DNA of 35,970 nt from the NCBI GenBank assembly GCA_030141605.1, contig JAQGDQ010001531.1, positions 1 through 35,970 on the forward strand, written 5' to 3'. Made by a program: the position numbers and the translations under genes. How positions within the stretch are numbered: the stretch's first letter is position 1; each line of letters opens with the position of its first letter. Under the pieces are notes generated by a model. It was not told the DNA's origin and did not search any database. It saw nothing but the letters and a program-made list of their open reading frames with translations. Shown here piece by piece: positions 9,020 through 9,156 of the stretch. The DNA is from Tubiluchus corallicola. Lineage: Eukaryota; Animalia; Priapulida.

Positions 9020-9156
9020 GGAGCCCGGATCATCCGTCAGATGAAGGAGAGCAACTCTGGCCTTGTGCGAAGCGCCTCTTTTTCGACTTATCAGGAAAAG
9101 TGTAGCAAATACTGCCACAAGGCCAATGTCTCTCACTGACGGAGGTGCCGAGCTCC
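9020..9156 (-). promoter_or_regulatory. Intronic RNA stem-loop between exons 9a and 9b (putative splicing regulator)
   Basis: Nested complementary blocks on the transcript: GGAGCUCGG/CCGGGCUCC, UCCGUCAG/CUGACGGA and UGGCCUUGUG/CACAAGGCCA. Arms at 9020-9067 and 9116-9156. Confidence 0.75.

What the first reader, a model, noticed from the sequence alone, without database searches (positions are those of the whole stretch)
9020..9156. Long stem-loop fills the intron between the twin exons: candidate exclusivity mechanism
Seen: 137 of the 202 intron nt lie within a GC-rich hairpin with nested helices of 9, 8 and 10 bp, plus short UGA/UCA and GAGA/UCUC pairs. One position is a U-G wobble on the transcribed (minus) strand but would be an A/C mismatch on the plus strand. 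Only 20 nt separate the 9a donor from the stem base, and 45 nt separate the stem base from the 9b acceptor. Both exons are 3n long, so NMD cannot remove double-inclusion products. Known: a too-short donor-to-branch-point distance blocks splicing of adjacent exons, and RNA structure combined with steric hindrance has been described for insect Dscam exon 17. Inference: the hairpin shortens the effective donor-branch distance so that 9a cannot join 9b.
Basis: partly seen in the sequence, partly recalled or inferred. Interest (0 to 1): 0.85.

Follow-up and report, generated by a model that had tools for sequence, protein, structure and literature searches.

The report
Hairpin lock between twin S6K exons
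In the S6 kinase gene of a likely priapulid worm, the 202-base intron between two old, intact copies of one exon is predicted to fold into a long single-copy hairpin, which likely keeps the two copies from being spliced together by hiding the best branch signal and leaving the others too close to the first copy.

Summary
Observation confirmed. The window holds an S6 kinase gene (minus strand; best hit Priapulus caudatus) with twin 108-nt, phase-0 exons (9177-9284, 8867-8974). 137 of the 202 intervening bases fold into three core helices (pair probability 0.96-1.00; z -3.5), the second-strongest non-tandem fold among 895 windows. It is GC-rich (0.54 vs 0.32), at single-copy depth in a whole-genome run, and lacks a target-site duplication, so it is not an active MITE. 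The copies are old and constrained (pS 0.81, pN 0.14); an RNA-type contig joins exon 8-9b-10 without 9a. Against: at the default branch positions the 44-48-nt linker matches yeast zipper stems, which promote splicing; no orthologous intron was reachable, so conservation and covariation are untested; 9a use is unseen; an even stronger hairpin lies in another intron without twin exons. A plausible new variant of steric mutually exclusive splicing, unproven.

The parts
   Evidence: tblastn; boundaries; joined to 9b in the X5 contig
9177..9284 (-). exon 9a, 108 nt, phase 0, open frame; the more diverged copy (5 residues from the Priapulus model)
   Evidence: intact in X1 and X3 contigs; no RNA contig laid on it
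9157..9176 (-). 20-nt 5' linker: 9a donor and a UUGAC branch-like motif whose A (9162) is 14 nt from the donor; donor predicted partly paired with the end of 9a
   Evidence: chance of such a motif here about 0.14
9116..9156 (-). 5' arm of the hairpin (helices of 9, 8 and 11 bp plus short internal pairs)
9068..9115 (-). weakly structured apical region; holds a CUGAU motif (A at 9091) directly followed by an AG, and the two allele differences seen in X1 (9072, 9074)
9020..9067 (-). 3' arm of the hairpin; buries the CUGAC branch motif (A at 9037, unpaired probability 0.00) and the head of the upstream pyrimidine tract
8975..9019 (-). 45-nt 3' tail: pyrimidine run, adenosines 9010-9007, an AAG at 9002-9001, weak UUUAU branch candidates (8995, 8991), pyrimidine tract and 9b acceptor
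8867..8974 (-). exon 9b, 108 nt, phase 0; 2 residues from the Priapulus model; the copy present in the RNA-type contig
   Evidence: joined to 9b in the X5 contig

Best explanation
The 137-nt hairpin, predicted to fold in the pre-mRNA between two intact and long-diverged copies of an S6 kinase exon, likely acts as a lock that would stop exon 9a from being spliced to 9b. Folding would do two things: bury the one strong branch motif that lies far enough from the 9a donor (CUGAC, 139 nt away) together with the head of the pyrimidine tract, and collapse the intron to an effective 65 nt in which every branch candidate outside the stem is 14-48 nt from the 9a donor, at or under the roughly 50-nt limit for U1 and U2 to sit together. 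The distant exon-8 donor is unaffected, so 8-9b-10 and 8-9a-10 remain possible. Shown: twin exons, phases, fold prediction, single copy, 8-9b-10 junctions in one contig, motif positions. Inferred: folding in vivo, use of 9a, the branch point actually used, and the block itself.
For: Fold z -3.46 with core pair probabilities 0.96-1.00 in every context. Second-strongest fold outside tandem arrays among 895 windows of 180 nt; the chance that one of the two such folds lies inside this intron is about 0.4-0.7% (post hoc). GC 0.54 against 0.315 +/- 0.05, maximum 0.445, in 333 overlapping intron windows. Single-copy depth in run X1 (162.9, one contig, against 1e4-1e6 on both flanking repeats), one contig each in X2 and X3, no target-site duplication. 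The copies differ at 17 codons silently and 7 in residue, pS 0.81 and pN 0.14, so both have been under purifying selection; 9a differs at 2 of 108 nt in sample X3 while the intron upstream of it differs at 7 substitutions plus 4 insertions in 89 nt (p 0.004-0.14 by how events are counted). The X5 contig carries exon 8-9b-10 junctions and skips 9a. The only three yUrAy motifs of the intron are at +15, +86 and +140; +140 has unpaired probability 0.00. Linkers for all outside candidates: 14, 29-32, 44, 48 nt. No competing docking-site pairing above shuffled controls. An intron of 202 nt amid introns of kilobases fits the size restriction described for steric pairs (PMC7969005, passages).
Against: No orthologous intron was found: 0 of 27 metagenome loci held twin exons, no genome is held, so conservation and covariation are untested. 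For the branch candidates at the usual distance from the acceptor the geometry (20 nt from the donor, 24-28 nt from the branch, 44-48 in all) meets all the yeast zipper-stem criteria (at least 10, 20 and 42 nt), and such stems aid splicing (PMC12350175). The +15 motif is expected by chance with probability 0.14, the intron after 9b has the same kind of motif at +18 and +26, and an AAG lies between it and the acceptor. A CUGAU in the apical loop stays partly open (0.65). A stronger hairpin (z -6.4) sits at 15570-15770 in an intron without twin exons, so long intronic hairpins arise in this gene for other reasons. The plus strand folds about as well. The allele differences seen (9072, 9074, 9168) avoid the core helices but are too few to count, and 3 X3 differences near the ends of its alignment are unplaced. 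The Priapulus caudatus model shows a single copy of the exon.
Confidence: 0.5

Rival explanations
1. The hairpin is a neutral relic of an old inverted-repeat insertion (foldback or MITE-like) that is now unique in the genome; exclusivity of 9a and 9b rests on protein factors or splice-site competition.
For: Both strands fold about equally. The gene is full of repeats, and another intron holds a stronger, MITE-looking palindrome with no twin exons. No conservation data.
Against: Single-copy depth at 80% likeness in X1 and single contigs in X2 and X3, no target-site duplication. An element old enough to lose all sisters should have eroded arms and lower GC, yet 28 core pairs hold with only two G-U pairs and GC is 0.54.
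Confidence: 0.25
2. The stem is functional but sets the ratio of 9a to 9b, or works as a zipper stem or a platform for double-stranded-RNA proteins, and does not itself forbid 9a-9b joining; some double inclusion (a 36-residue duplication) may occur.
For: 44-48-nt linker is compatible with the A complex in yeast modelling, where zipper stems promote splicing. Structures around distant branch points modulate their use in OGDH (PMC7969005, passages). The 9a donor is itself predicted to be paired with the end of 9a (0.88-0.95).
Against: A stem that promoted 9a-9b joining would duplicate part of the kinase C-lobe in frame, with no NMD escape (harm to the protein is inferred). Without the stem the CUGAC motif and pyrimidine run would already allow splicing, so a zipper is not needed in a 202-nt intron.
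Confidence: 0.17
3. The hairpin is the precursor of an intron-hosted small RNA (miRNA, snoRNA) unrelated to exon choice.
For: About 38 paired positions in a long stem; GC-rich, single copy.
Against: No Rfam match over it up to E 5. The two halves do not fold as separate H/ACA hairpins (z -0.17, -0.9); no C box in place by eye. A 48-nt apical region and asymmetric bulges fit poorly with a pre-miRNA (criteria recalled).
Confidence: 0.05
4. Exon 9a is a dead or never-used duplicate, so there is nothing to exclude, and the hairpin helps silence or is incidental to it.
For: Only 9b was seen in the RNA-type contig; 9a carries an uncommon residue at position 32 (4 of 87 distinct homologous segments).
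Against: Silent sites between the copies are near saturation while residues are kept; frame and both splice sites are intact in the window, X1 and X3. Contigs drop rare isoforms.
Confidence: 0.03

Closest known systems
Steric-interference mutually exclusive exons: OGDH 4a/4b (PMC7969005, passages read) and the 57 of 629 human clusters with donor-to-branch distance under 50 nt (PMC5740500, passages read)
   Same: Two duplicated exons, a short intervening intron, in-frame double inclusion that NMD cannot remove, a proposed U1/U2 clash; OGDH also has hairpins at its branch cluster.
   Different: There the branch points are close to the donor in linear sequence and followed by a long AG-free pyrimidine tract. 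Here the intron has 12 internal AGs, 10 of them inside the hairpin span, and only folding would bring the distance under the limit.
Drosophila Dscam exon 17.1/17.2 (Yue et al. 2013; not held, seen only as a citation and one sentence in PMC7969005; details recalled)
   Same: A two-exon cluster in which RNA structure and branch-point position are both implicated.
   Different: As recalled, the steric block is linear proximity or small intron size and the structures bias the choice; here one intra-intron stem would create the block.
Yeast zipper stems and downstream stems (PMC12350175; passages and section 27 read)
   Same: A stem between donor and branch point (or branch point and acceptor) that shortens the effective distance; our default geometry meets the zipper criteria.
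   Different: In yeast they promote splicing of constitutive introns; the proposal here is the inverse use, at or under the lower limit of the linker.
Docking-site/selector competing structures (Dscam 4, 6, 9; PMC6071210, PMC8042237, passages read)
   Same: Intronic RNA pairing associated with tandem duplicated exons.
   Different: No competing partner for either arm was found in the flanking introns; the stem is local and non-competing.
p70 S6 kinases (Priapulus caudatus XP_014676485.1; human S6K1, e.g. PDB 4rlo, 4l3j)
   Same: Same kinase, same segment, same exon borders as single-exon relatives L005 and L014.
   Different: No swap of this segment among 34 isoform and cluster members from molluscs, an annelid, a nemertean and ticks; the duplication looks lineage-restricted as far as I could see.

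Membership tests
Mutually exclusive duplicated exons | Tandem homologous exons of equal length and phase with intact splice sites | tested here: met
   108 nt each, phase 0, 70% nt identity
Mutually exclusive duplicated exons | Both copies under coding constraint | tested here: met
   pS 0.81, pN 0.14; 9a intact in X1 and X3
Mutually exclusive duplicated exons | Transcripts with each exon alone and none with both | tested here: inconclusive
   One RNA-type contig has 8-9b-10; none laid on 9a; contigs cannot show absence
Steric-interference exon pairs | Branch point within about 50 nt of the upstream donor in linear sequence, with an AG-free zone to the acceptor | tested here: not met
   Only the +15 motif is that close; 12 AGs lie inside the intron and the AG-free zone is 26 nt
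Steric-interference exon pairs | Effective (folded) donor-to-branch distance under the limit | tested here: inconclusive
   14, 29-32, 44 or 48 nt by candidate; under 50 but the last two are above the yeast 42-nt minimum
Steric-interference exon pairs | Branch point mapped by lariat sequencing | not testable with these tools
   No raw RNA reads available
Functional conserved RNA structure | Conservation and compensatory changes across species | not testable with these tools
   No orthologous intron; only same-label samples
Docking-site/selector system | Two or more selectors competing for one docking site | tested here: not met
   Best duplexes of 7 intron segments with both flanking introns were within or near the range of 6 shuffles each
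MITE / foldback element | Many genomic copies | tested here: not met
   One contig at single-copy depth in X1 at 80% likeness
MITE / foldback element | Target-site duplication at the ends | tested here: not met
   None of 2-11 nt at 4 end positions
snoRNA / miRNA | Rfam family match or box motifs with the family's fold | tested here: not met
   No Rfam hit on the intron; halves do not fold as H/ACA hairpins
snoRNA / miRNA | Discrete small-RNA products | not testable with these tools
   No small-RNA data

The most novel reading that the evidence does not exclude
An intron that is long enough to splice makes itself unspliceable between neighbours purely by folding: a single local stem both hides the permissive branch point and collapses the intron below the U1-U2 limit. 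This would be the inverse of the yeast zipper stem and a separate route to mutually exclusive splicing, here giving a priapulid two S6 kinases with different C-lobe surfaces from one gene, and possibly recurring in other animals.
Probability: 0.25. Interest if true: 0.75.

Novelty: new variant of a known kind. Interest (0 to 1): 0.47.

Why it matters
Most two-exon mutually exclusive clusters have no known enforcing mechanism (484 of 629 human clusters unexplained in PMC5740500), and screens measure donor-to-branch distance in linear sequence, so fold-made steric locks would be missed systematically. This intron is a compact 418-nt test case for whether a stem can cross from helping to blocking spliceosome assembly. 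Separately, either-or exons in the catalytic domain of S6 kinase, a central growth kinase, did not turn up in my searches.

Tried and rejected
No genome is held for the window. No RNA holder was listed for the stretch; X5 was added by species label and its RNA nature is a guess. The lack of X5 cover on 9a is not evidence of silence. In the second laying X1 returned nothing through the tool's filter, so X1 data come only. A search with the frame that reads through the intron into 9b gave 131 proteins (120 listed), none matching the intron part convincingly. 0 of 27 metagenome loci had twin exons or intron similarity. 0 of 253 proteins with a hit to the exon, among 329 fetched by then, had two copies; among 150 listed of 186 representatives the best identity to 9a was 89% and the 3 two-stretch hits were single exons split by an insertion. 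An alignment of all window exons was misaligned and not used. A first background scan with 140-nt windows cut the hairpin and was replaced. A 19-bp pairing between the 9a donor region and the 9a acceptor region (-23.3 kcal/mol) was dropped: it is within the shuffle range and sample X3 has clustered changes at 9304-9311 that break it. U2-pairing energies ranked motifs in shifted register and were not used beyond the CUGAC and UUGAC scores. H/ACA, C/D and pre-miRNA readings rejected as above. Yue et al. 2013 and one further paper on MRP1 exon clusters are not held; PMC4691838 held none of my terms.

Full report
Setting. The window carries a p70 S6 kinase gene on the minus strand, with coding exons placed by tblastn from about 24036 down to 990. 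The best hit of its second exon among 310 proteins is Priapulus caudatus S6K (83% over 40 residues, E 2e-11), and that protein matches the window's kinase-domain exons at 67-97%, so the organism is likely a priapulid. One exon is present twice: 9a (9177-9284) and 9b (8867-8974), each 108 nt and phase 0. It encodes the segment that aligns with human S6K1 in the kinase C-lobe (the helix G-H assignment is recalled).

The observation. Among 895 windows of 180 nt, only 15575-15754 (z -6.1) folds better outside the 41-mer tandem array; this hairpin scores -4.5. The wobble is real but the plus strand folds nearly as well, so strand bias says little.

Is it a mobile element? Laid on run X1, the intron is covered by one contig at depth 162.9, whereas the repeats on either side reach 1e4-1e6; X2 and X3 each give one contig over part of it. 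There is no second copy in the window and no target-site duplication. An active or recent MITE is therefore excluded at 80% likeness; an old, now unique relic is not, and the palindrome at 15570-15770 (z -6.4; copy number not tested) shows that such hairpins occur in this gene without twin exons.

Are the exons a working pair? They differ at 24 of 36 codons, 17 silently; pS 0.81 against pN 0.14. 9a keeps frame and splice sites in X1 (one silent change) and X3 (one silent, one Thr-to-Ser change), while the intron upstream of 9a differs in X3 at 7 substitutions and 4 insertions over 89 nt, part of it compared by eye from the loose end; the contrast has p 0.004 to 0.14 depending on how the clustered events are counted. 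The one contig of run X5 laid here covers 8867-8971, and its loose ends are the end of exon 8 and the start of exon 10: an 8-9b-10 transcript that skips 9a. No contig of X5 lies on 9a, which shows nothing about its use. The Priapulus model has one copy, intermediate between the two (2 residues from 9b, 5 from 9a); whether that genome hides a second copy I could not see. No swap of this segment appears among 34 isoform and cluster members of molluscs, an annelid, a nemertean and ticks (35 ids given, 1 unrelated short protein dropped), and 0 of 27 metagenome loci have twin exons.

Mechanism. The intron has three yUrAy motifs: +15 (9162), +86 (9091, apical region, followed at once by an AG) and +140 (9037); two weaker UUUAU motifs lie 20 and 16 nt before the acceptor. 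Unfolded, the CUGAC at +140 followed by a pyrimidine run would be a good branch point 139 nt from the 9a donor and would permit 9a-9b joining. Folded, its adenosine has unpaired probability 0.00 from 4 to 37 C, and the remaining candidates lie 14 nt (+15), 29-32 nt (adenosines just after the stem) or 44-48 nt (UUUAU) from the donor. All are under the ~50-nt steric threshold used in PMC5740500 and PMC7969005 (passages read). If +15 is used, the stem would bridge it to the pyrimidine run across about 50 effective nt; the AAG at 9002 in between is predicted mostly paired, and constitutive acceptors of this gene tolerate upstream AGs at -15 to -35. But that motif has a 0.14 chance probability and a counterpart after 9b, so I do not rank it above the others. 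The strongest objection is that the 44-48-nt case satisfies the yeast zipper-stem rule (at least 42 nt in all, 10 from the donor, 20 from the branch), and such stems help splicing (PMC12350175, passages and section 27); how the paper counts its linkers relative to the motif edges is not stated precisely enough to place our case on one side. No docking-site or selector pairing stood out, and no small-RNA family fits.

What is not shown. Folding in vivo, the branch point, use of 9a, absence of double inclusion, and conservation. The known allele differences (9072, 9074 in X1; 9168 in X3) fall outside the core helices and leave the fold unchanged where tested, but they are too few, and 3 further X3 differences near the alignment ends, which include part of the 5' arm, are not placed by the tool.

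Literature. Searches for mutually exclusive or tandem duplicated exons with S6 kinase, with priapulids, and for stems enforcing exclusivity listed no paper on this gene or on a fold-made steric lock; I saw listings and abstract starts for these, passages of PMC11802352, PMC7969005, PMC7404189, PMC8042237, PMC13762713, PMC6071210, PMC12350175, PMC12962786 (reference list only), PMC5740500 and PMC9013439, and no supplements; lists of exon duplications in supplements (for example of PMC8373072 or PMC5740500) and subscription papers could bear on the claim of novelty. The Dscam exon 17 paper is not held; PMC7969005 says only that RNA structure and distant branch points together were implicated there. 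An earlier unchecked AI note describes a similar collapse to 69 nt between twin UBR2 exons in an octopus; it is a lead, not support.

Verdict. A real, single-copy, well-placed hairpin in a credible mutually exclusive exon pair. Lock function 0.5, neutral relic 0.25, ratio-tuning or zipper role 0.17, small RNA 0.05, dead 9a 0.03. New variant of a known kind; interest 0.47.

Noticed in passing
window 15570-15770, minus strand: A stronger, AT-rich long hairpin (z -6.4) with arms of about 37 nt in another S6K intron; looks like a MITE-type palindrome; copy number not tested.
   Followed up: partly
window 9368-9817 (copies at 4630-5080 and 11028-11462): A very high-copy interspersed repeat with inverted ends sits about 85 nt upstream of the 9a acceptor (depth 1e5-1e6 in X1).
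   Followed up: partly
window 9285-9340, minus strand: The 9a acceptor has an AG-free zone of at least 68 nt, two CUCAC motifs about 46-50 nt upstream and a CpG-rich, UG/UC-type tract unlike the U-rich acceptors of the other exons; may mark 9a as the regulated copy.
   Followed up: partly
window 9164-9193, minus strand: The 9a donor is predicted to pair with the last codons of 9a (probabilities 0.88-0.95), using bases of codons that differ from 9b.
   Followed up: partly
window 9177-9284: The best database matches of 9a are bird S6K2 proteins, while 9b shares residues with S6K1-type sequences; probably convergence at a few variable sites.
   Followed up: no
window 30328-35970, plus strand: An open frame of 1881 codons running off the window with Pao peptidase, reverse transcriptase and integrase zinc-finger matches: a BEL/Pao-type retrotransposon upstream of the gene.
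   Followed up: partly
window 6280-8049, 12248-13028, 18184-18713, 1634-1761: Tandem arrays of 41, 42, 34 and 3 nt units inside S6K introns; the 42-mer family has inverted relatives at 13107-13386 and 16824-17513.
   Followed up: no
P0209, P0407, P0413, L025-L027: Some animals split this same exon with an extra intron after its first 15-17 codons.
   Followed up: no
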